The notes under the pieces are model-generated. The model was not told the origin of the DNA, searched no databases, and was given only the letters and a program-made list of their open reading frames with translations. A stretch of 64,000 bases of DNA from an uncultured cyanobacterium. Lineage in GTDB: Bacteria > Cyanobacteriota > Cyanobacteriia > CAKZMO01. Of the stretch, positions 2,366-63,791 are shown one piece after another; the first letter of the stretch is position 1; every line of letters starts with the position of its first letter. The DNA is taken from NCBI GenBank assembly GCA_963719515.1, contig CAVRCJ010000004.1, forward strand, positions 95,555 through 159,554. The letters run 5' to 3'. Both the position numbers and the translations under genes were made by a program.

Positions 2366-2802
2366 GGAAGCCTTTAAGATGTGGCCAGTGCTCGCGTGGC
2401 GGTTAGGAAATGGTGTAGGACATGGGAGAGCGGTGCGCCTTTACTTTGATGCCGAAGGCGAGAATTGAGGGCAGCGCTGAGGTGAGCAATAGGTGTACTT
2501 GTGGATGTACTTAAGTATAGATGTACTTAAGAGATAGCGGTAATGCGCACTAATATATCCTATGGGTATGGTCCGGAGCACCTGAAAAACCTGTAGTGGC
2601 GGTCAACCACAAGCCAGAGCCAGCTGGTGCTGAGAAGAGGATTTCCTCAAATTGTCTGCGGTGGGACGCACCGTCGACGTAAAACAAACAGCCTGTGAAG
2701 GCGTTCTGACCGGGGATGTCTGGGCTTGCTTGGATATCTAGGCATGAGCCAGTGAAACAGGACTTTCTGACTGTACCCGTAGGGTCAGGGGGAGAGCGTT
2801 AG
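2366..2802 (+). mobile_element. Degenerate non-autonomous IS200/IS605-derived cassette (copy E) with omega-RNA-like scaffold; ends eroded, boundaries approximate
   Basis: 2432-2490 GGTGCGCC..GATGCCGAAGGCG..AATTGAGGGCAGCGCTGAGGTGAGCAA and 2653-2762 TGTCTGCGGTGGG..GAC..AAACAAA..GCCTGTG..CGGGG..GCTTGC..CTAGGCA..TGAAACAGGA align by eye with copies C and D. No clean TTTAG or TCAC termini. Confidence 0.7.
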
Positions 2803-5520: not shown

Positions 5521-5912
5521 GTGACATCCTCCCGACGCTGACAGCAAGCTGTACAGCGCGGGCTTCCTCAGTGACTCCCAGCTATTGCCGGGACATATCC
5601 TGAGATAGGTTTATACTCCGCCTGATGCCCCACGGCAGAGTTTTGAATTTTCATCTCCGCGAGGGAGGATACGCACTATGTGTCGCAGATACATTTGCAA
5701 ACTGAGGAACGGGTGACTTGCAGCTTTCGCCTACGGGCCCGTCACACTCTTTGCGGGGTGTATCACCTTGCTATCTCTATCATACCAACTGCTAGCCTCA
5801 GCGCTGAGCGCACTATCCGCTGTGCATCATTTTGCGGGCGCACTTCGGCTAGCGCGACTCTCATCCCGACGCTCACCCTGACGGGTAGAGCGCGGGGCTT
5901 CCCGTCTAGTCG
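5521..5912 (-). mobile_element. Non-autonomous IS200/IS605-family mini-element (copy A, 392 bp): left end, -10 box, omega-RNA-like scaffold, right end
   Basis: On the minus strand it follows TTTAG (5913-5917). Left hairpin AAGC-CCCGCGCT..AGCGTCGGG; right hairpin GAAG-CCCGCGCT..AGCGTCGGG-AGGATGTCAC. Inverted copy of 56811-57202 with about 3 differences by eye. Confidence 0.88.
5779..5787 (-). promoter_or_regulatory. Extended -10 box TGGTATGAT inside copy A, pointing to the right end and ptxA
   Basis: Position conserved in B (56936-56944 TGGTATGAT), C (6685-6693 TGGTAGAAT) and D (62844-62852 GGGTACAAT). Confidence 0.6.
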
Positions 5913-5918
5913 CTAAAC

Positions 5919-6379: not shown

Positions 6380-6818
6380 GTGACATTCTCCCGGCGCTTA
6401 TCTTACAGATAAATCGCCGGCTTCAGAGAGCGCTCCCCTGCGATTTCCTGCTTATTTTGGCTCTGTCTAGTCACGCAGCACGCTATGCGACCCCGATTAG
6501 CTCCCATCCACAGGCCATTCTTACGTCCAGGTGATGACCCACCCCAGACACCAAGTATTTACTCCTTCACCTCACGTATCCTAATTTGCCGCACTGTTCA
6601 CCAGCCATAGCTGCAGTTTGTGTCAGAACAGAAGGCCGCCACCCGTGTCGTCCCTCTGGGCGGTTTGTCCGCGTTGGCGATGTAATTCTACCATTTGTTC
6701 ATCTCGCCACTGCCCTCAATTTCTGCCCTCGGCATCAGACTAGGGGCGCACCTCGACTCACACGATTTTCACCCCGACGCTGATGCTTTGCTTACAGCGC
6801 GGGGCTTCCATCTAAAAG
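6380..6818 (-). mobile_element. Non-autonomous IS200/IS605-family mini-element (copy C, 439 bp)
   Basis: Minus strand: TTTAG|CTTTTAGATGGAAGCCCCGCGCT..AGCGTCGGGG, internal GCCTGTGGA..AAGCAGGAA, ending GAAGCCGGCGA..AGCGCCGGGAGAATGTCAC. Homologous to 62528-62976. Confidence 0.85.
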
Positions 6819-7447
6819 CTAAAGATCGCCTCATCACATCTAAGCTGCCGCGCCCTGATCTTGCCAACGGCGATCGCCGTGAGAATCGTCGTGCGCGAGA
6901 GCGCAAAGAGTGCGGTGCGGCTAGAGTTGGCGAAAAGCAGATGACCGCATAACCCCAGGAACAGGAGGCCGAACTGGAGGGAGCTGTGGTTTTGTCCTAG
7001 CCAGGAGTAGCCCGAGATAGTGACCCCCTCACGATAAATTTTTCCCGTCCCCGTATGGACCCGTCTGCGCTGACGCTGAAGCTTGAGAGCCCCAGGCAGC
7101 TGGGAGACAAACGACAGGGGGCAGCTGCGCCGCCAGAAATCGTGGCCAAATACCAGCAAAACGAAGATACAGGCTGGAACGACAACCATCCAAAAGACAA
7201 AATTGCCCAGGCTGTAGGGGGCGGCCTCAAAGCACCGTCCCTGAAATTCAACACAGCGGCTGGGGCCTAAACGAAACGGGCTGACAAGGCTCGACCCAGC
7301 GGTCAGCTGGCTCGAAAGGGGGTCGTACAGCAAAGAGCAAAGCAAGATGCCCCATCCGGCTGTGAGTATCCACCTGACGCGGCGCATACTTTTTTCAGGC
7401 AAATCAGCAATCATGACGGGTGTGGCAATAGAGACGGGCCGGTCCAC
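6812..7447 (-). pseudogene. 3'-truncated cyanobacterial membrane protein of the 4Fe-4S-binding (CPL motif) / cyclic-nucleotide-binding type
   Basis: RW.LT.GW..L..SL.YDP, FW..VVP..IF.LLVFGH..WRR.CPLSF.SQ. Recognisable similarity stops at TAIAVG, about 45 bp before copy C; full-length relatives as I recall them continue for hundreds of residues. Confidence 0.65.
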
Positions 7448-55952: not shown

Positions 55953-56810
55953 ATGATACCCAGCTGGAAAACGGTAAAACCCTACGTCCTAGCAGCACCT
56001 CAGGCGATCGCCCTGTGCCTGTTCCTGGTTTTCCCCATTGCGCTAATCGCGGTGGTGAGCTTCTGGGAGTTCAACGGGTATTCCATGACGCCCGCCTTCA
56101 CGCTGGACAACTACGCCGGCATCTTCACCTCCGACGTCACCCTCAAAACCTACCTCAACACCTTTAAGTTCGTGGGCTTGGTGTGGTTGGTGACGCTGCT
56201 CATCGGCTATCCCGTGGCCTACTTCTTGGCCTTCTGCGTGCCCAAGCTGCGCTGGCAGGTGCTGCTATTTTTGCTCTGCACTATCCCCTTCTGGACCTCT
56301 AACATCATCCGCATGATTTCTTGGGTGCCGCTGCTGGGAAAGGAGGGGCTGGTGAATCAGATTTTGCTGGGAAGCGGGTTACTAGACCAGCCCCTGGAAT
56401 TCTTGCTTTACTCCGATTTTGCGGTGGTGCTGGGGCTGGTGCATCTCTACGTCATTTTTATGATTGCGCCCATATTCAATAGCCTCATGCGCATCGATCG
56501 CACCTTAATTACTGCAGCAGAGGACATGGGAGCCTCGGGCCTAGCGGTGTTTCAGGAGGTGGTGCTGCCCCTGTCGGCTCCCGGCATCGCCATTGGCTCT
56601 ATTTTTATCGTCACCCTGGTAATGGGGGAGTTTGTCACGGTGCGGCTGATGGGGGGCGGGCAGGCGGCGTCCATCGGGAAACTGATTCAAACGCAGATTG
56701 GCAGCCTGCAGTATCCGCTGGCGGCGGCGAACGCCATGGTGCTGCTGCTGGTGACGCTGCTGCTGGTGGTGTCCATTTTGCAGGTGGTGAACATTCGCAA
56801 AGAACTTTAG
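55953..56810 (+). CDS. ABC permease, PotB-like
   Basis: GYPVAY, PFWTS..IR..SW, AA.D.GA, PLS.PGI; the stop codon TAG is part of the TTTAG target of copy B. Confidence 0.9.
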   Translation: MIPSWKTVKPYVLAAPQAIALCLFLVFPIALIAVVSFWEFNGYSMTPAFTLDNYAGIFTSDVTLKTYLNTFKFVGLVWLVTLLIGYPVAYFLAFCVPKLRWQVLLFLLCTIPFWTSNIIRMISWVPLLGKEGLVNQILLGSGLLDQPLEFLLYSDFAVVLGLVHLYVIFMIAPIFNSLMRIDRTLITAAEDMGASGLAVFQEVVLPLSAPGIAIGSIFIVTLVMGEFVTVRLMGGGQAASIGKLIQTQIGSLQYPLAAANAMVLLLVTLLLVVSILQVVNIRKEL

Positions 56811-57202
56811 CTACTAGACAGGAAGCCCCGCGCTCTACCCGTCAGGGTGAGCGTCGGGATGAGAGTCGCGCTAGCCGAAGTGCGCCCGCAAAATGATGCA
56901 CAGCGGATAGTGCGCTCAGCGCTGAGGCTAGCAGTTGGTATGATAGAGATAGCAAGGTGATACACCCCGCAAAGAGTGTGACGGGCCCGTAGGCGAAAGC
57001 TGCAAGTCACCCGTTCCTCAGTTTGCAAATGTATCTGCGACACATAGTGCGTATCCTCCCTCGCGGAGATGAAAATTCAAAACTCTGCCGTGGGGCATCA
57101 GGCGGAGTATAAACCTATCTCAGGATATGTCTCGGCAATAGCTGGGAGTCACTGAGGAAGCCCGCGCTGTACAGCTTGCTGTCAGCGTCGGGAGGATGTC
57201 AC
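56811..57202 (+). mobile_element. Non-autonomous IS200/IS605-family mini-element (copy B, 392 bp)
   Basis: TTTAG|CTACTAGACAGGAAGCCCCGCGCT..AGCGTCGGG ... GAAGCCCGCGCT..AGCGTCGGGAGGATGTCAC; inverted near-identical copy of A. Confidence 0.88.
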
Positions 57203-57392
57203 GCGGTAGGCTCCTCGCTCGTCGATATTGGAATAGGAGTAGCGTTGCCGACTGGGGGTATACATTTTGTCAGGATACGGCAGTGCCTTGTCCCTACCGC
57301 CTGACTTTGGACCTACCCAAGACCGGGAATTCATACCTAGAGTCATCAATTCCGTCAACGCCGGAAATCTCTAAACCGATGTTCTACTCGGA

Positions 57393-60300
57393 ATGCCCAC
57401 TGCTGGAATGAACGAGTCAGCTCTAAAGTCTCACGATCGCCCCTTTCATGTTTTGGCGTGCCTACTGAGCCTAGGCGTGATCGGCCTAGGAACGCTTGTC
57501 GTCGTCGGCTGGATTTTCAACGTTGATGGACTGAAGGGGGTTTCGCCCGATCTGCCGACGATGAAGGTGAACACGGCCCTGTGCCTGCTGCTGGGCGGGA
57601 CATCGCTGTCATTGGCCCAAATCACAACCCTGCCCCAGGTGGGGCGGTGGCGACGGAGCTGCCAGTTTCTCAGCCTGTGTCTTGCGGGGCTGATGGTTTG
57701 GCTGGGAGGCAGTACGCTGCTGGAATACGGGCTGGGGACCGACCTGGGAATTGATCAATGGCTGATTCTCCAGCCGGAGCCGTCTGGAAGCCTCGCCGCT
57801 CCTGGGCGCATGGCCCCTAACACCGCGATCGCCTTTTGGACGCTGGGTATAGCGCTAATATTCGTGCAGTACCCGGTGACCTGGTGGGGGGCGCAAGCGC
57901 TGGCCGCGCTGGCCGGCTGTATTAGCTTTGTTGCCCTGTTGGGATACCTCTATGGGGCCATTCCTTTCTACGGCGTAGGCTCACTGACGGGAATGGCCCT
58001 GCACACGGCCCTGGGCTGTCTCGCCCTCAGCTTGGGGATCCTGTGTCTATACCCCCAGCGGGGACTGTTGGCCATTGTGGTTGGGCCTGACCTGGGCAGT
58101 CGGCTGTTGCGGCGGCTGTTGCCCTTGCTGCTGGTAATTCCACCGACGATTTGGGGCATTGCCGAAAGCGAGTGGCTGCAAAACTACTACGGCGCTGACT
58201 ACGCCGAGGCGATCGCCAGCACCGTCAATATCCTTCTGCTGTCGGCCATTGTCACCTGGACTGCCCATCAGCTCAATCAGCTCAGCCGCAGGGAAGGGGC
58301 CGCTCGGCGGGAGCTTGAGGTCTCTCAAAAGCGGCTCAAGGGCATATTACAGCATGTGCCCGTTGGTGTTTTTCAAACCACGACGGCGGGGCAGTGTACA
58401 TACGTCAATCAGCGCTGGTCAGACATGACCGGACTGACGCTAGAACAGGCCCGGGGGGACGGATGGATCGCTGCGCTCCACCCCGTGGACCGCGAAGCCG
58501 TCTTTACCGAATGGCAGCAGTCCATTGAAGGCGACCGCCCTTTCGTGCTGGAATATCGCTTCATTAAGCCAAGAGGAGAAGTGGTTTGGGTCCAGGGTAA
58601 TGCTGTGGCCCTACGCAGCGACGCCGGGGAGGTGATTGGCTATTTGGGCAGCACCCTAGATATTTCTGAGCGGAAACAGGCAGAGATCACGAATCAGGCG
58701 CTGATTCAGGCGATTCCCGACTACCTGGTACATATCCGACAGGACGGAACCTACGTCGATGTTTTAAACAAAAGCAGTACGTCCGTAGATCTTTTATATC
58801 CCGAGGCCAACGTGCCAGGATGCCACATTACAGATGCGCTGCCCCGCGATCTTGCCGCCGAGCGCATGAGCTACGTGCGCCGCGCTCTAGCCACGGGCCA
58901 AACCCAGCAGTATGAGTATCAGATCACCGTTCGGGACTGCCTTTACGACGAAGAGGCGCGGTTGATTCCCCTGGATGACGTCAACGTCTTGGCGGTGATT
59001 CGCGATATCACCGGACAAAAGCAAAAAGAGCAGTTCCTCAAACAGGCCAAACAGCAGGCAGAGGCCGCTAACCGGGCCAAAAGTGAGTTTTTGGCCAACA
59101 TGAGCCACGAAATTCGCACGCCCATGAACGCCGTTTTGGGGTTTGCCGAACTGCTGCAGCCCATGATTACGGAGGCGATCGCGCAAGATTACCTGCGGGC
59201 GATCGCCTCCAGCGGAAAAACCCTGCTGGGCCTGATTAACGACATCTTAGACCTGTCGAAAATTGAGGCCGGGCGACTCGAACTCTATCTAGAGGCCGTC
59301 GATATCCGCATGCTGGCGCAGGATGTCTGCGCTATTTTCAGTCAAAACGCCCGCAGCAAAGCCATCGGCCTTGCCCAAACCGTTGCCGCAGAGGTCCCCC
59401 GCTACCTGCTGGTTGATGAAATCCGGCTGCGTCAGATTTTGTTCAACGTGGTGGGCAACGCCCTTAAGTTCACTGAGGCGGGCCAGGTCAACATTTGCAT
59501 CGACCTCTGCGCGCCCCCCTGTCCATCACCCGGCTCGCCAGCATTATCCAACGCCAATCAGGTTTGCCTCCAGATTGTCGTTCAAGATACGGGAATTGGT
59601 ATTGCCCCGACCCAGCAAGCCCGCATCTTTGAAGCCTTTACCCAAAGCCAAGGTCAGAGCGCCCGCGAGTTTGGGGGCACCGGTCTAGGACTCGCCATCA
59701 CCCGACGCCTGGTTGACTTGATGGGCGGTGAAATCACCGTCACCAGCCTGCTGGGACAGGGCAGCAGCTTTACCTTTTTCTTTCCCGAGGTCGAAATCTC
59801 TGTCCCCAAAGCAGCTTCGGTGGTCTCAGACACCACCGACATCAATCTTCGCCAGTTTGCGCCCGCTCGCCTCTTGATTGTGGATGACGTCGCCTCCAAC
59901 CGCGACGTGCTTGCCGGCTATTTTCGCGGGACGCCCCACACCCTCGCCTTTGCCGAGAACGGCGAGGCGGCGGTGCGTTTGGCTCTCACCTGGCAGCCTG
60001 ACGTAATCTTGATGGATCTGCGGATGCCCCGCATGGATGGTCTAGAGGCCTCTCGCCGCCTTAAGGCCACAGAAGCGACTCGCCACATCCCCATCGTGAT
60101 AGTGACCGCTTCATCCCAGGCACAAGACGAAGTTGCGCTAAGAGAGCTATGCGAGGGATTTATTCGCAAACCCGTCAGCTATGGCAGTTTGGTCGCGGCC
60201 CTGAAGTCGGTGATGGCGATCGCGGAGCCTGCCCCATCGGCGATGCTCTTGCCATCCCCCAAGGCCGAAACAAAAATCAGACCAGATTCAGCGGCAGCCC

Positions 60301-60590
60301 TATCCTCAGAGCAGCGTCAGCGCCTTATCCAACAGCTACAGTCTCTGGCGACTACCCTCTGGGAACCGCTGCAGCAAACCCTGTCGGTAGATCAAGTTGA
60401 GGCATTCTCAGCTACTTTGAATCAGCTGACAGCTGAGATGCCCTATCCCCCGCTATCGCAGTACGCCCAAACCCTAACCCAGCAGCTAGACGACTTTGAC
60501 TGGACAGCGATTCCCCAGACTGTAGCTGCATTTATGCCTCTGCTGCACAACCTCACGGAGGGAGCGGTGCACCCCATAGAACCTATTTAA
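57393..60590 (+). CDS. Membrane-bound hybrid histidine kinase (TM region, PAS x2, HisKA, HATPase, REC)
   Basis: [52 protein letters not shown]. Confidence 0.95.
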
Positions 60591-60824
60591 GCGTCCTCAC
60601 GGTGACTTGGCGATCGCGAATTTCATGTTTTCTTAAACACTGAAGACAGAAGGGTATCAAACCGGTACATTAAATCTATATGTGAATGATTATCTTTGGA
60701 GTTTCTCAGGCCGGATTTCTCCGACTTGCGTCCCCGCCTCAGATCAAGTGCGTTGTTTTTACCGACCCCTCGACGTAGTACATCCCGCTGTCTACTCTCT
60801 AGCTCTATACCGGGGTGACCTATT

Positions 60825-62531
60825 GTGAAACCTCTCGCTCCCGCAGTTGCCACATCTAGCCTGATTTTGATTGTTGACGATCAACCAGCTAACCTCAAAG
60901 TGCTGCGCGGGCTGTTTGCCAACATGGGGCATCGGCTTACCTTTGCCGCGAGCGGGCAGCAGGCCCTTGAGCGAGCCCGCTCCGCCCAACCCGACTTAAT
61001 TTTGCTAGACTTGATGCTGCCCGACATGAGTGGCTTAGAGGTATGTCAACGGCTCAAGCAAGCGGAAAGCACCGCCGACATTCCCATTATCTTTTTGACG
61101 GCCAGCCACGAACTCGACCACCTGCTAGAAGCCTTTGAGCAGGGCGCTGTGGACTACGTCACCAAGCCGTTCCGCTCATCTGAGCTGTTGACCCGCGTGC
61201 GGCATCACCTGTTGCTCCAAAATACAAAAGCTGCCCTGGCCGAGATCAATCATCATCTGGAGGAACAAGTTCAGCAGCGTACGGCTCAGCTTCGGCAGGC
61301 GCTTACTTTTACGGACATTTCTCAGCGCATTATTGAGCGCGTCCGAGACAGCTTGGATGAAACCCAAATCCTTTCAACGGTGGTGCATGAGCTGACCCAG
61401 GTGCTGGCATTAGAGCGAGCACAAACCGGTCTCTATAACGTAGCTGCAGAGACCTCTACCATTACTCAAGATTACGCAGTTTCTTCCAGTGTAGATAGGG
61501 TGAATCGGTTTGCGGACTATCAAGACATTTATAACCCGCTGCTGCAGGGCGAGACCATTCAGCGCCTCCTGCCCGCAACGCCGGCGCACCAGGTGCATCA
61601 GCTTACAGAGGCCGCGACGCTTCTAGCCTGTCCGCTCCAGCACGAGCGCGAAATTATTGGTGACCTGTGGCTCTACCGACTTCACCAGCAGCCTTTTAGC
61701 GACAATGAAATTCAGCTCGTAGAGCACGTCGCGGCCCAAAGCGCGATCGCCATTCGTCAAGCCCGCTTCTACCGGGCCTCCCAAGCGCAAGTCGAAGAGC
61801 TAGAGCGCCTCAACTACGCCAAAGACGACTTTTTGAAGACCATTTCCCACGAGCTGAAAACGCCGCTGACGACCATCAAAGCCGCTGCAGGCACCCTCGG
61901 CATATTATTTCAACAGCCCGACTGGCGATCTAAAGAAGCGCAGATTGCCCAAGAATCGCTCAATTTTTTAAACGAAGGATGCGATCGCGAAATTCAGATT
62001 GTCAACAATCTATTGGAGCTCGTCCATCTCGATATCGGCACCGTAGACTCGATGATGGAGCTGACGGATATTCCCACCATAGTGGAGGGAGCGTCTCGAT
62101 TTCTCAGCCAGCGCTTCAGTCAGCGCAACCTTACGCTAAAAATAAGCCTTTCCGAGACCCTGCCGCTGCTGTTAACCCACGCTGAGATGCTGGAGCGCAT
62201 CTTGCTGGAGCTGCTCGACAATGCCTGTAAGTACACGCCGCCCGGAGGAAAAGTCGAAGTGGCCGCATCCCACAGCGATCGCGCCGTTGAATTCACGGTG
62301 AGTAATTCGGACGTTACCTTACCGGATGAAAATCTCGATCGCATGTTTGAAACGTTTTATCGCTTACCCCAGCCCGATCGCTGGCAGCATGACGGCGTCG
62401 GGCTGGGGTTAGCTCTGGTGAAAAAGCAGGTGGACTACTTGGGCGGGAGCATTTCCCCGCACTACGACAACCGGTGCCTCACCTTTAAGCTCAGCTTTCC
62501 CTTGCGAAATCCCAGAGAGTTGGTAAGGTGA
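60825..62531 (+). CDS. Hybrid histidine kinase (REC, GAF, HisKA, HATPase)
   Basis: ILIVDD, LLDLMLP, DYVTKPF, GAF region, SHELKTPLT, NACKYT, G.GLGL; the stop codon lies in the first bases of copy D's right end. Confidence 0.93.
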   Translation: MKPLAPAVATSSLILIVDDQPANLKVLRGLFANMGHRLTFAASGQQALERARSAQPDLILLDLMLPDMSGLEVCQRLKQAESTADIPIIFLTASHELDHLLEAFEQGAVDYVTKPFRSSELLTRVRHHLLLQNTKAALAEINHHLEEQVQQRTAQLRQALTFTDISQRIIERVRDSLDETQILSTVVHELTQVLALERAQTGLYNVAAETSTITQDYAVSSSVDRVNRFADYQDIYNPLLQGETIQRLLPATPAHQVHQLTEAATLLACPLQHEREIIGDLWLYRLHQQPFSDNEIQLVEHVAAQSAIAIRQARFYRASQAQVEELERLNYAKDDFLKTISHELKTPLTTIKAAAGTLGILFQQPDWRSKEAQIAQESLNFLNEGCDREIQIVNNLLELVHLDIGTVDSMMELTDIPTIVEGASRFLSQRFSQRNLTLKISLSETLPLLLTHAEMLERILLELLDNACKYTPPGGKVEVAASHSDRAVEFTVSNSDVTLPDENLDRMFETFYRLPQPDRWQHDGVGLGLALVKKQVDYLGGSISPHYDNRCLTFKLSFPLRNPRELVR

Positions 62532-62976
62532 CATACTCCCGACGCTCATCTTTTAGATGGAGCGCGGGCTTCTTGGCTCACGCACCACAATTTAATGGAT
62601 GCCGCGCAAGAAGGTTTCCTGCTTCATCTGGTCCTGTCTAGTTACGCAGCAAGCCGTGCAACCCCGATTAGATCCCATCGACAGGCGATTTGTTTAATGT
62701 CCAGGCAATGACCAACCCCAGACAGTGACGAGTATTCAATTTCCAGCTACGTTTTCTACCGTCTGCACTGTTCACCAGCCAAGGGCTGTACGTTTGTGTC
62801 AGGATAGCAGGCCGCCGCCATGAAATAGTTTGAGCTTGGTTCAATTGTACCCTTTGCTCGCCTCGGCGCTGCCCTTAATTGCCGCCTTCGGCATCCAGTC
62901 AAGGGCGCACCTCGACTCGCTCGCTTACATCCCGACGCTGATGCTGCGCATACAGCGCGGGGCTTTCACGAACTAG
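62528..62976 (-). mobile_element. Non-autonomous IS200/IS605-family mini-element (copy D, 449 bp)
   Basis: Minus strand: TTTAG|CTAGTTCGTGAAAGCCCCGCGCT..AGCGTCGGG ... GCCTGTCGA..TGAAGCAGGAA ... GAAGCCCGCGCT..AGCGTCGGGAGTATGTCAC. Confidence 0.86.
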
Positions 62977-62993
62977 CTAAAGAGAACCCATCC

Positions 62994-63791
62994 ATGAAGC
63001 GATCGCCCTCGTTCTACCTGCTCGCGGCTTTCTTCGGACTATTTCTCCTGTTTCTCTACGGCCCGATGTTCACCATCTTTATCCTGTCGCTGCAGGGGCC
63101 CGACGGGGCGCTCACCTTTCCCGTGCGCAGCTTTGGGTTCTACTGGCTCGGTCAGGTGTTTCAAGAGCAGCGGGTGGGCAATTTTGTAGAACCGTTTCAG
63201 CGATCGCTCGTGTTGGGCGCAGTGGTAACGCTGCTGGCGGCAGGTATCTCGATGCTAGGGGCGATGGCGTTTCGGCTGCGGTTTCGCGGGTCTACAGCGC
63301 TGTTTTACCTCACGGTAGCGAGTTTGATTGTGCCCAGCATCTTGATTTCTTTGGGGCTAGGGGTGATGTTTCAGGTGATGGAATGGCCTACCCGCTGGTA
63401 CACCTCAGGCTTGGGAGCCCATTTGACCTGGACGCTGCCCATCGCCTTCTTAATCATGCTGGGGGTGTTTAACCGCTTTAATCCAGCGTATGAAGAGGCG
63501 GCTCGGGATTTGGGGGCTGGCGATGTCCGCACCTTTTGGGAGGTGGTGCTGCCGCTGGTGGCTCCTAGCCTGGCGGGGGTGAGTCTGCTGATGTTCACGC
63601 TGTCCTATGACGAGTTCACCCGGACGTCGTTGGTGTCGGGGCAGTACAATACCCTGCCTTTGGAGATCTTTGGCATGACGACCAACGTTACGTCTCCGGC
63701 GCTCTATGCCCTGGGTACGCTAACGACGCTGTTTTCAGGGAGCTTGATTGCTATTGCCTATGTGCTCTACCGGCGGTTTTCGATGCGCTGA
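62994..63791 (+). CDS. ABC permease, PotC-like
   Basis: FLYGP, EEAARDLGA, FTLSYDEF, TLPLEI. Confidence 0.9.
   Translation: MKRSPSFYLLAAFFGLFLLFLYGPMFTIFILSLQGPDGALTFPVRSFGFYWLGQVFQEQRVGNFVEPFQRSLVLGAVVTLLAAGISMLGAMAFRLRFRGSTALFYLTVASLIVPSILISLGLGVMFQVMEWPTRWYTSGLGAHLTWTLPIAFLIMLGVFNRFNPAYEEAARDLGAGDVRTFWEVVLPLVAPSLAGVSLLMFTLSYDEFTRTSLVSGQYNTLPLEIFGMTTNVTSPALYALGTLTTLFSGSLIAIAYVLYRRFSMR

What the first reader, a model, noticed from the sequence alone, without database searches (positions are those of the whole stretch)
56806..57202. Ends obey the TnpA guide/cleavage pairing code, suggesting the cassettes are still mobilisable
Seen: in all four intact copies the 4 nt before the left hairpin are AAGC and before the right hairpin GAAG; the two ends differ by a single extra C (GAAGCCCCGCG vs GAAGCCCGCG). 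Established from IS608 (AAAG/TTAC, GAAT/TCAA): guide positions 1, 2, 4 pair with cleavage-site positions 2, 1, 4. That rule predicts TTnG and TCnC, matching the observed TTAG and TCAC. The hairpin tips vary in sequence but remain self-complementary (ACCC-GTCA-GGGT, ACAGC-TT-GCTGT, CATCT-AAA-AGATG). Inference: the ends are maintained for a Y1 HUH transposase acting in trans.
Basis: partly seen in the sequence, partly recalled or inferred. Interest (0 to 1): 0.7.

Follow-up and report, generated by a model that had tools for sequence, protein, structure and literature searches.

The report
Gene-less transposon with working DNA guides
This 392-base stretch is one of 53 near-identical copies of a gene-less jumping element in a cyanobacterium whose four-base DNA guides predict its insertion word, a known principle, and which differs in position between close strains, so it likely still moves with a transposase made elsewhere in the genome; in its relatives two amino acids of the RNA-guided nuclease TnpB change in step with the guide, which suggests a testable code for the DNA word the nuclease reads.

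Summary
Observation confirmed with small corrections. The element is 56811-57202 (TTTAG is host target), one of 53 copies of a gene-less IS605 derivative (PATE); 14 copies, including this one, are identical. Ends carry IS608-type hairpins, guides AAGC/GAAG and sites TTAG/TCAC. The pairing rule holds as natural covariation: in this genome AAGC-TTAG 94/94 and AAGT-TTAA 15/16; elsewhere in cyanobacteria 96/98 for guide position 4, and 15/15 CAGC-TGAG in a prediction test of position 1. Three local CAGC copies miss it. No target duplication. An intact tnpA with the same ends is present, and a public-run contig shows a copy joined exactly behind a TTTAG that is empty here. Mechanism (TnpA in trans) is known. 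The scan reported the guide/target and TnpB covariation and the leader before, on other DNA of this genome. New member of a known kind; nothing tested at the bench.

The parts
56806..56810 (+). Host target TTTAG (left cleavage site TTAG; predicted TnpB TAM); its TAG is the stop codon of the upstream PotB-like permease gene
56811..57202 (+). Mini element A1, 392 nt, no gene; identical to 13 other copies
56823..56826 (+). Left guide AAGC (predicts TTnG)
56827..56858 (+). Left subterminal hairpin with bulged T
56859..56860 (+). AT at the foot of the left hairpin, the position of the IS608 triplet bases A+42/T+43
56939..56944 (+). Promoter-like -10 hexamer TATGAT (TATACT and TATAAT in two same-genus homologs); not found by the strict two-hexamer scan
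56950..57085 (+). Folded RNA leader not derived from tnpB, conserved in gene-less elements of other cyanobacteria, no Rfam match
57082..57202 (+). TnpB1-type omega RNA scaffold: stem 57082-57108 with compensatory changes against the parent, GTGG (57090-57093) able to pair with terminal TCAC
57157..57160 (+). Right guide GAAG (predicts TCnC)
57161..57192 (+). Right subterminal hairpin, followed by AG (triplet bases)
57199..57202 (+). Right cleavage site TCAC, last bases of the element
57203..57218 (+). Host flank that would be the RNA guide for TnpB (matches the empty site)
   Evidence: inference from PMC8612924 passages
5521..5912 (-). Mini element A2 (target TTTAG at 5913-5917)
62528..62976 (-). 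Mini element B, 449 nt, one of 16; TnpB2-type scaffold with a pseudoknot mismatch (target 62977-62981)
6380..6818 (-). Mini element E, 439 nt, single copy; TnpB2-type scaffold (target 6819-6823)

Best explanation
This is a gene-less IS605-family mini-transposon whose ends carry intact IS608-type hairpins and four-base DNA guides that match its insertion word TTAG and its last bases TCAC, and it is likely still cut out as a single strand and pasted behind new TTAG sites by the TnpA transposase of the genome's full-length IS605 copies. Shown: ends, 53 copies, target, no duplication, a tnpA with the same ends, one insertion polymorphism, covariation of guide with target. From IS608/ISDra2 work: TnpA binds the hairpins, guide positions 1, 2, 4 pair with site positions 2, 1, 4, and two bases 3' of the hairpin form triplets. 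Inferred: an internal promoter makes an RNA (leader + omega scaffold + host flank) that loads TnpB1 from about 15 intact gene copies elsewhere; TnpB1 would cut the empty TTTAG joint so that repair restores the element. Inferred: because TnpB must read the same word that TnpA inserts behind, two TnpB residues change whenever the DNA guide changes.
For: Own genome AAGC-TTAG 94/94, AAGT-TTAA 15/16. Other cyanobacteria: 96 of 98 left ends with a callable TTAn fit position 4 (AAGC-TTAG 53, AAGA-TTAT 23, AAGT-TTAA 18; label shuffles mean 40.5, max 57 of 10,000); right ends 30 of 33 fit, including GAAT-TCAA 13. Prediction test of position 1: CAGC-TGAG 15/15 in 11 genomes, GAGC-TCAG 3/3, GAGT-TCAA 3/4. 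Triplet base: guide A->AT 29/32, C->AA 14/18 (none AT), G->AG 7/8 (IS608 triplets in PMC3201880). TnpA: 159 aa, HVH motif and tyrosine helix, NCBIfam IS200/IS605 transposase 128 bits against cut-off 55; 2 of 3 copies have a normal start. Recent movement: 14 of 53 identical; run X4 contig joins the family-A right end with no overlap or extra base to the base after a TTTAG that is empty here; a related strain in run X1 lacks A1 with spacing kept; a paralog spans one tnpB1-element junction without gap. TnpB: residue placed at ISDra2 S56 is K with guide-4 C (29), Q with T (11), L with A (1); residue aligned to F77 is Q with guide-1 A (27), H with C (10), D with G (2), 2 exceptions; all 20 fixed differences between 5 TTAG-type and 5 TTAA-type tnpB2 copies here lie in codons 61-100.
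Against: Three family-B copies with guide CAGC sit behind TTAG, TTAG, CTAG, not TGAG, and CAGT ends fit in 0 of 3. No excision circle was seen (contigs only). The X4 joint lies 50 nt from an existing copy and rests on one contig, so a local rearrangement is possible. The X1 empty site has 8 diverged letters and only 30 nt on one side. The strict promoter scan finds no + strand promoter. Family B has a fixed mismatch in the predicted pseudoknot (16/16). Independent-pair tests of the TnpB link are too small (3 of 3 same way, p 0.25; 2 of 3 with one tie, p 0.5), and the S56 placement is by motif, outside the phmmer alignment.
Confidence: 0.88

Rival explanations
1. The ends are leftovers of a recent burst that has stopped; conservation reflects young age and gene conversion, not current use.
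For: Mean pairwise difference among the 53 copies is only 3.8 nt, so ends would look intact without selection. Families B and C have no identical copies. One of three tnpA copies lacks the normal start.
Against: Insertion polymorphism among near-identical strains; 14 identical copies; two tnpA copies with full frames; same architecture kept in same-genus homologs at 94% and 86%.
Confidence: 0.08
2. The element moves with TnpA, but its RNA is not a working TnpB guide: the scaffold is a remnant, or the leader turns it into a decoy or regulator that binds TnpB or another protein.
For: Leader is unrelated to tnpB 3' ends and conserved only on gene-less elements among the hits read (11 of 12 loci shown, one spurious); family B pseudoknot mismatch; no TAM plus 12-nt guide match elsewhere in the genome for any of 101 elements.
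Against: Family A keeps the scaffold stem through compensatory changes and the GTGG/TCAC pairing in 53/53; scaffold type matches a TnpB with the matching TAM residue; stand-alone omega RNAs are reported to work in trans (PMC10691335 passage).
Confidence: 0.35
3. The TnpB residue/guide match is hitch-hiking: left end and TnpB N-terminus are inherited as one block, with no functional code.
For: Left end and these codons lie about 100-900 nt apart; guide labels cluster on both trees; independent pairs do not reach significance.
Against: In this genome the 180 nt of tnpB2 between left end and the variable patch carry no fixed difference; the two columns rank first of the whole alignment and fall where ISDra2 reads the TAM; a K/D TnpB was predicted to have guide GAGC and target TCAG and did (L199).
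Confidence: 0.2

Closest known systems
IS608 (Helicobacter pylori) ends; He et al. 2011 PMC3201880 (Introduction and passages read), Morero et al. 2018 PMC5934647 (passages)
   Same: Subterminal hairpins with an extra-helical T, 4-nt guides at the 5' foot, target kept on the left, cleavage site inside the right end, AT and AG triplet bases 3' of the hairpins, no duplication; guide changes redirect the target.
   Different: Words are AAGC/TTAG and GAAG/TCAC instead of AAAG/TTAC and GAAT/TCAA; no genes; retargeting is seen as natural variation at positions 1 and 4 with the triplet base following.
Homogeneous PATEs of Haloquadratum walsbyi (PMC3119063, passages)
   Same: No terminal inverted repeats, near-terminal palindromes like those of IS605 elements, no duplication, no transposase, >90% identical copies, strain-specific insertions.
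   Different: Cyanobacterial; interior holds a promoter-like site, an RNA leader and an omega scaffold rather than a plain core deletion.
PATE-like omega-RNA elements of Geobacillus stearothermophilus (Meers et al., PMC10055086, passages) and stand-alone omega RNAs (PMC10691335, passages)
   Same: Gene-less, predicted to be moved in trans by TnpA and to supply guides to TnpB in trans; clade-specific TAMs.
   Different: 53 copies of one family; extra conserved leader with no Rfam match.
ISDra2 TnpB TAM readout (PMC10097598, PMC8612924, review PMC13639567; passages)
   Same: TAM equals TnpA target; Y52/S56 contact base -1, Q80 base -2, K76/F77 base -3.
   Different: Here natural K/Q/L and Q/H/D states at the S56 and F77 positions track G/A/T and T/G/C; the passages read report alanine losses and K76 relaxation, not such a switch code.

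Membership tests
PATE (non-autonomous IS200/IS605 derivative) | Near-terminal palindromes, no terminal inverted repeats | tested here: met
PATE (non-autonomous IS200/IS605 derivative) | No target duplication | tested here: met
   101 complete elements, none with 5 nt or more; X4 joint
PATE (non-autonomous IS200/IS605 derivative) | Too short to encode a transposase | tested here: met
   392 nt; only a 78-codon minus-strand ORF; tnpA search has no hit in it
PATE (non-autonomous IS200/IS605 derivative) | Ends shared with an IS605 element that encodes TnpA | tested here: met
   three tnpA+tnpB elements with 89-92% left-end and 87% right-end identity
PATE (non-autonomous IS200/IS605 derivative) | Strain-specific insertions | tested here: met
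   (one contig each)
IS608-type peel-and-paste substrate | Guide/cleavage-site pairing and triplet bases | tested here: met
   three local CAGC copies are exceptions
IS608-type peel-and-paste substrate | TnpA cleavage and single-strand circle formation | not testable with these tools
   needs assay or raw reads; only contigs were served
Stand-alone (trans) omega RNA for TnpB | Scaffold homologous to a TnpB 3' end with stem and pseudoknot | tested here: met
   family A matches the TnpB1-type profile only, E 1.4e-4 with ends masked; stem and GTGG kept
Stand-alone (trans) omega RNA for TnpB | Expressed as RNA | not testable with these tools
   no RNA run available; promoter-like -10 only
Stand-alone (trans) omega RNA for TnpB | Guides TnpB cleavage | not testable with these tools
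   bench assay needed
Classical MITE | Terminal inverted repeats and target duplication | tested here: not met

The most novel reading that the evidence does not exclude
One base in the left-end DNA guide resets a four-part lock: the insertion word, the triplet base behind the hairpin, and a two-residue TAM code in TnpB (K/Q/L for G/A/T at -1; Q/H/D for T/G/C at -3). A single TnpA then serves TTAG and TTAA families in one genome, and the gene-less minis are self-transcribed guide cassettes with an uncatalogued RNA leader that borrow the TAM-matched TnpB to defend their sites. The residue code would let TnpB TAMs be read from, and switched by, two substitutions.
Probability: 0.5. Interest if true: 0.66.

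Novelty: new member of a known kind. Interest (0 to 1): 0.42.

Why it matters
What would matter is the by-product: natural elements give matched sets of guide, target, triplet base and TnpB residues, so TAM specificity, a main limit of TnpB editors (review PMC13639567, passages), becomes testable with two point substitutions; and a 53-copy, strain-polymorphic mini element is a ready substrate to test in-trans use of both TnpA and TnpB and the role of the leader RNA.

Tried and rejected
Rfam: no match in the window at gathering score or in 56800-57250 at E<=1. Metagenome scan with a family-A pattern: 0 hits. No RNA holder listed. Empty-site search in four same-genus genomes: the intergenic DNA behind the permease stop is too diverged to show a clean joint. 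In-genome empty-site search: 3 junction-spanning hits among the complete elements, one clean. Two further loose-end flanks: one belongs to a known tnpB1 element, one has only a 2-mismatch hit and was left unresolved. Composite-transposon idea (A1 and B bracket two kinase genes between permease genes that are adjacent in G001 and G003): rejected as unsupported, the elements face each other on opposite strands and a related strain has the flank without A1. Guides aimed at other sites of the genome: 0 of 101. Interior as a decayed tnpB remnant: only the last ~120 nt match. blastn for the leader beyond the genus found only the scaffold stem; the covariance model did find it. Left ends could be called for only 54 of 149 TnpB hits; earlier, stricter callers gave fewer. 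Small-share runs were not used for habitat.

Full report
Observation. The stretch is a 392-nt element, 56811-57202, behind TTTAG (56806-56810) and ending in TCAC. A 99% identical inverted copy lies at 5521-5912, and two more elements with both ends at 62528-62976 and 6380-6818, minus strand. All four have AAGC before the left hairpin and GAAG before the right; the six ends folded give the expected hairpin with a bulged base. Pairing of guide positions 1 and 2 with site positions 2 and 1 is stated in PMC3201880; the position-4 pair is recalled from Barabas 2008 and agrees with those words.

What it is. The genome (21 contigs, 5.28 Mb; a cyanobacterium, judged from where its class-level relatives and end homologs fall) has 53 full copies of this family at 96-100% identity; 14, including A1, are identical. 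A pattern search gave 113 left and 106 right ends: family A (53), B (16 of 449 nt), C (6 of 422-424 nt), single minis, 16 complete tnpB1-only elements, tnpB2 elements and three elements with divergent tnpA plus tnpB1. The TnpA scores 128 bits on the IS200/IS605 transposase model (cut-off 55); the C10 and C1 copies have a full frame, the C5 copy lacks the normal start. Fifteen tnpB1 copies have full frames with the three RuvC acidic motifs.

The code as covariation. In this genome AAGC goes with TTAG in 94 of 94 left ends and AAGT with TTAA in 15 of 16; background TTAG is 0.23%. Overlap between target and right flank is near chance in 101 complete elements, none 5 nt or more. All 106 right ends have GAAG, but they were selected for a TCAC-like tail, so that count is not a test. 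A collection scan (15 of 64 parts) gave 103 left ends from other genomes, nearly all cyanobacteria, many from a few genera; 98 had TTAn at 11-14 nt and 96 of these fit position 4, with a third state AAGA-TTAT. Right ends fit in 30 of 33. I then predicted TGAG for CAGC guides and searched 401 genomes: 35 matches, 30 fetched; CAGC-TGAG 15 of 15 (11 genomes), GAGC-TCAG 3 of 3, GAGT-TCAA 3 of 4, CAGT 0 of 3; 2 were own-genome, 2 right ends, 1 unclear. Position 2 never varied usefully. Against the rule: three family-B copies here have CAGC yet sit behind TTAG, TTAG and CTAG. In IS608 two bases 3' of each hairpin form triplets with guide positions 1 and 2. In loci not chosen for that base, it follows guide position 1: A-AT 29 of 32, C-AA 14 of 18 (none AT; the three AG cases carry a right-end tail), G-AG 7 of 8. 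The three local CAGC copies keep AT, so they look like incomplete mutants rather than retargeted ends (inference).

Still mobile? Run X4 holds a contig (depth 10.6, no mismatch over 282 nt of flank and 61 nt of family-A right end) that joins TCAC directly to the base after a TTTAG that is empty in this assembly and in run X1. That is the joint TnpA integration makes; it lies 50 nt from an existing copy in the other orientation and is one contig. In run X1 a contig of depth 6.6, probably from the related strain seen there, skips A1 with spacing kept but 8 letters diverged and 30 nt on the short side. One tnpB1 element has a gap-free paralog across its junction. No circle junction was seen, which contigs cannot be expected to show.

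Interior. A TATGAT at 56939 varies as TATACT and TATAAT in two same-genus homologs, though the strict scan finds no plus-strand promoter. With both ends masked, family A matches a profile of TnpB1-type 3' ends only, and B, C, E a TnpB2-type profile only. The scaffold stem differs from the parent yet pairs 8 of 8; GTGG able to pair with TCAC is kept in 53 of 53 A copies but reads GTCG in 16 of 16 B copies. The 136-nt leader has no Rfam match; a model built from three homologs found it in 6 more of 151 genomes; 11 of the 12 loci read run into a right end with no gene in the stretch shown, one was spurious. Seven of 27 predicted pairs change on both sides, on an alignment fitted to the model and mostly between two groups, so the fold is only suggested. 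Earlier scan notes gave me this lead.

TnpB follows the guide. TnpB's TAM equals the TnpA target in ISDra2, read by Y52/S56 (-1), Q80 (-2) and K76/F77 (-3). Here tnpB2 occurs behind both AAGC/TTAG (5 copies, lysine) and AAGT/TTAA ends (9 copies, glutamine) at the position I place at S56 by motif; K76, F77, Q80 align by phmmer to S, Q, Q. Between 5 of the 5 K and 5 of the 9 Q copies all 20 fixed differences lie in nt 181-300, none in the other 18 windows. Across cyanobacteria, of 149 TnpB hits 54 had a callable left end; dropping 5 duplicates and 8 weak or gapped rows left 41: K-C 29, Q-T 11, L-A 1 for guide position 4, and Q-A 27, H-C 10, D-G 2, two exceptions for position 1. In 36 full-length rows these two columns rank first, and on a tree of the C-terminal part AAGT needs at least 4 changes on starred branches; independent pairs are too few for significance. 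I reached this before seeing that the scan had reported it on other DNA of this genome; that is not independent support.

Comparison. Gene-less IS605 derivatives moved in trans are PATEs; that they often carry omega RNAs is stated by Meers et al. and Altae-Tran et al.. Six literature searches listed no paper on a natural residue code for TnpB TAMs or on this leader; I read passages of eight papers and one Introduction, no supplements, and did not see Xiang et al. 2024, which may cover it.

Verdict. Real, correctly read, and a new member of a known kind. Mobilisation by the genome's TnpA is likely (0.88); in-trans TnpB guiding about 0.55; the residue code about 0.7 as a functional link. Interest 0.42.

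Noticed in passing
window 2432-2790 (+): Decayed fifth mini: B/E-like segment and TnpB2-type scaffold remnants, no intact ends.
   Followed up: partly
window 55953-63791: Two histidine-kinase genes (57393-62531) sit between PotB-like and PotC-like genes that are adjacent in G001 and G003; element B's right end supplies the stop codon of the second kinase gene.
   Followed up: partly
genome-wide: 14 of 108 targets use their TAG/TAA as the stop of an ORF of 100+ codons, against 4.2% of sampled TTAG sites (p 2e-4); probably survival of harmless insertions, no intergenic control run.
   Followed up: partly
G000 C10:892622+, C3 468288-, C10 126350- (strand offsets): Some tnpB2 right hairpins carry a ~24-nt palindromic insert in the stem, reminiscent of small repeats that target PATE palindromes.
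   Followed up: no
L290, L294, L298: Left-end target and guide followed by one hairpin and a right-end tail: apparent terminal-only elements after core deletion.
   Followed up: no
L019, L205, L208, L224, L230, L231: Left ends with a 24-25 nt instead of 12 nt spacer between target and guide, still obeying the code.
   Followed up: no
G000 C6:428062-428458: A family-A copy splits the tnpB of another IS200/IS605 element.
   Followed up: no
G000, TTAA families: No tnpA was found on an AAGT/TTAA element here, so these would depend on the TTAG element's TnpA or another one; ends of the other tnpA genes were not examined.
   Followed up: partly
L081-L144 (Okeania and relatives): Many 230-330 nt gene-less elements with AAGA/TTAT or AAGT/TTAA left ends and GAAT/TCAA right ends.
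   Followed up: no
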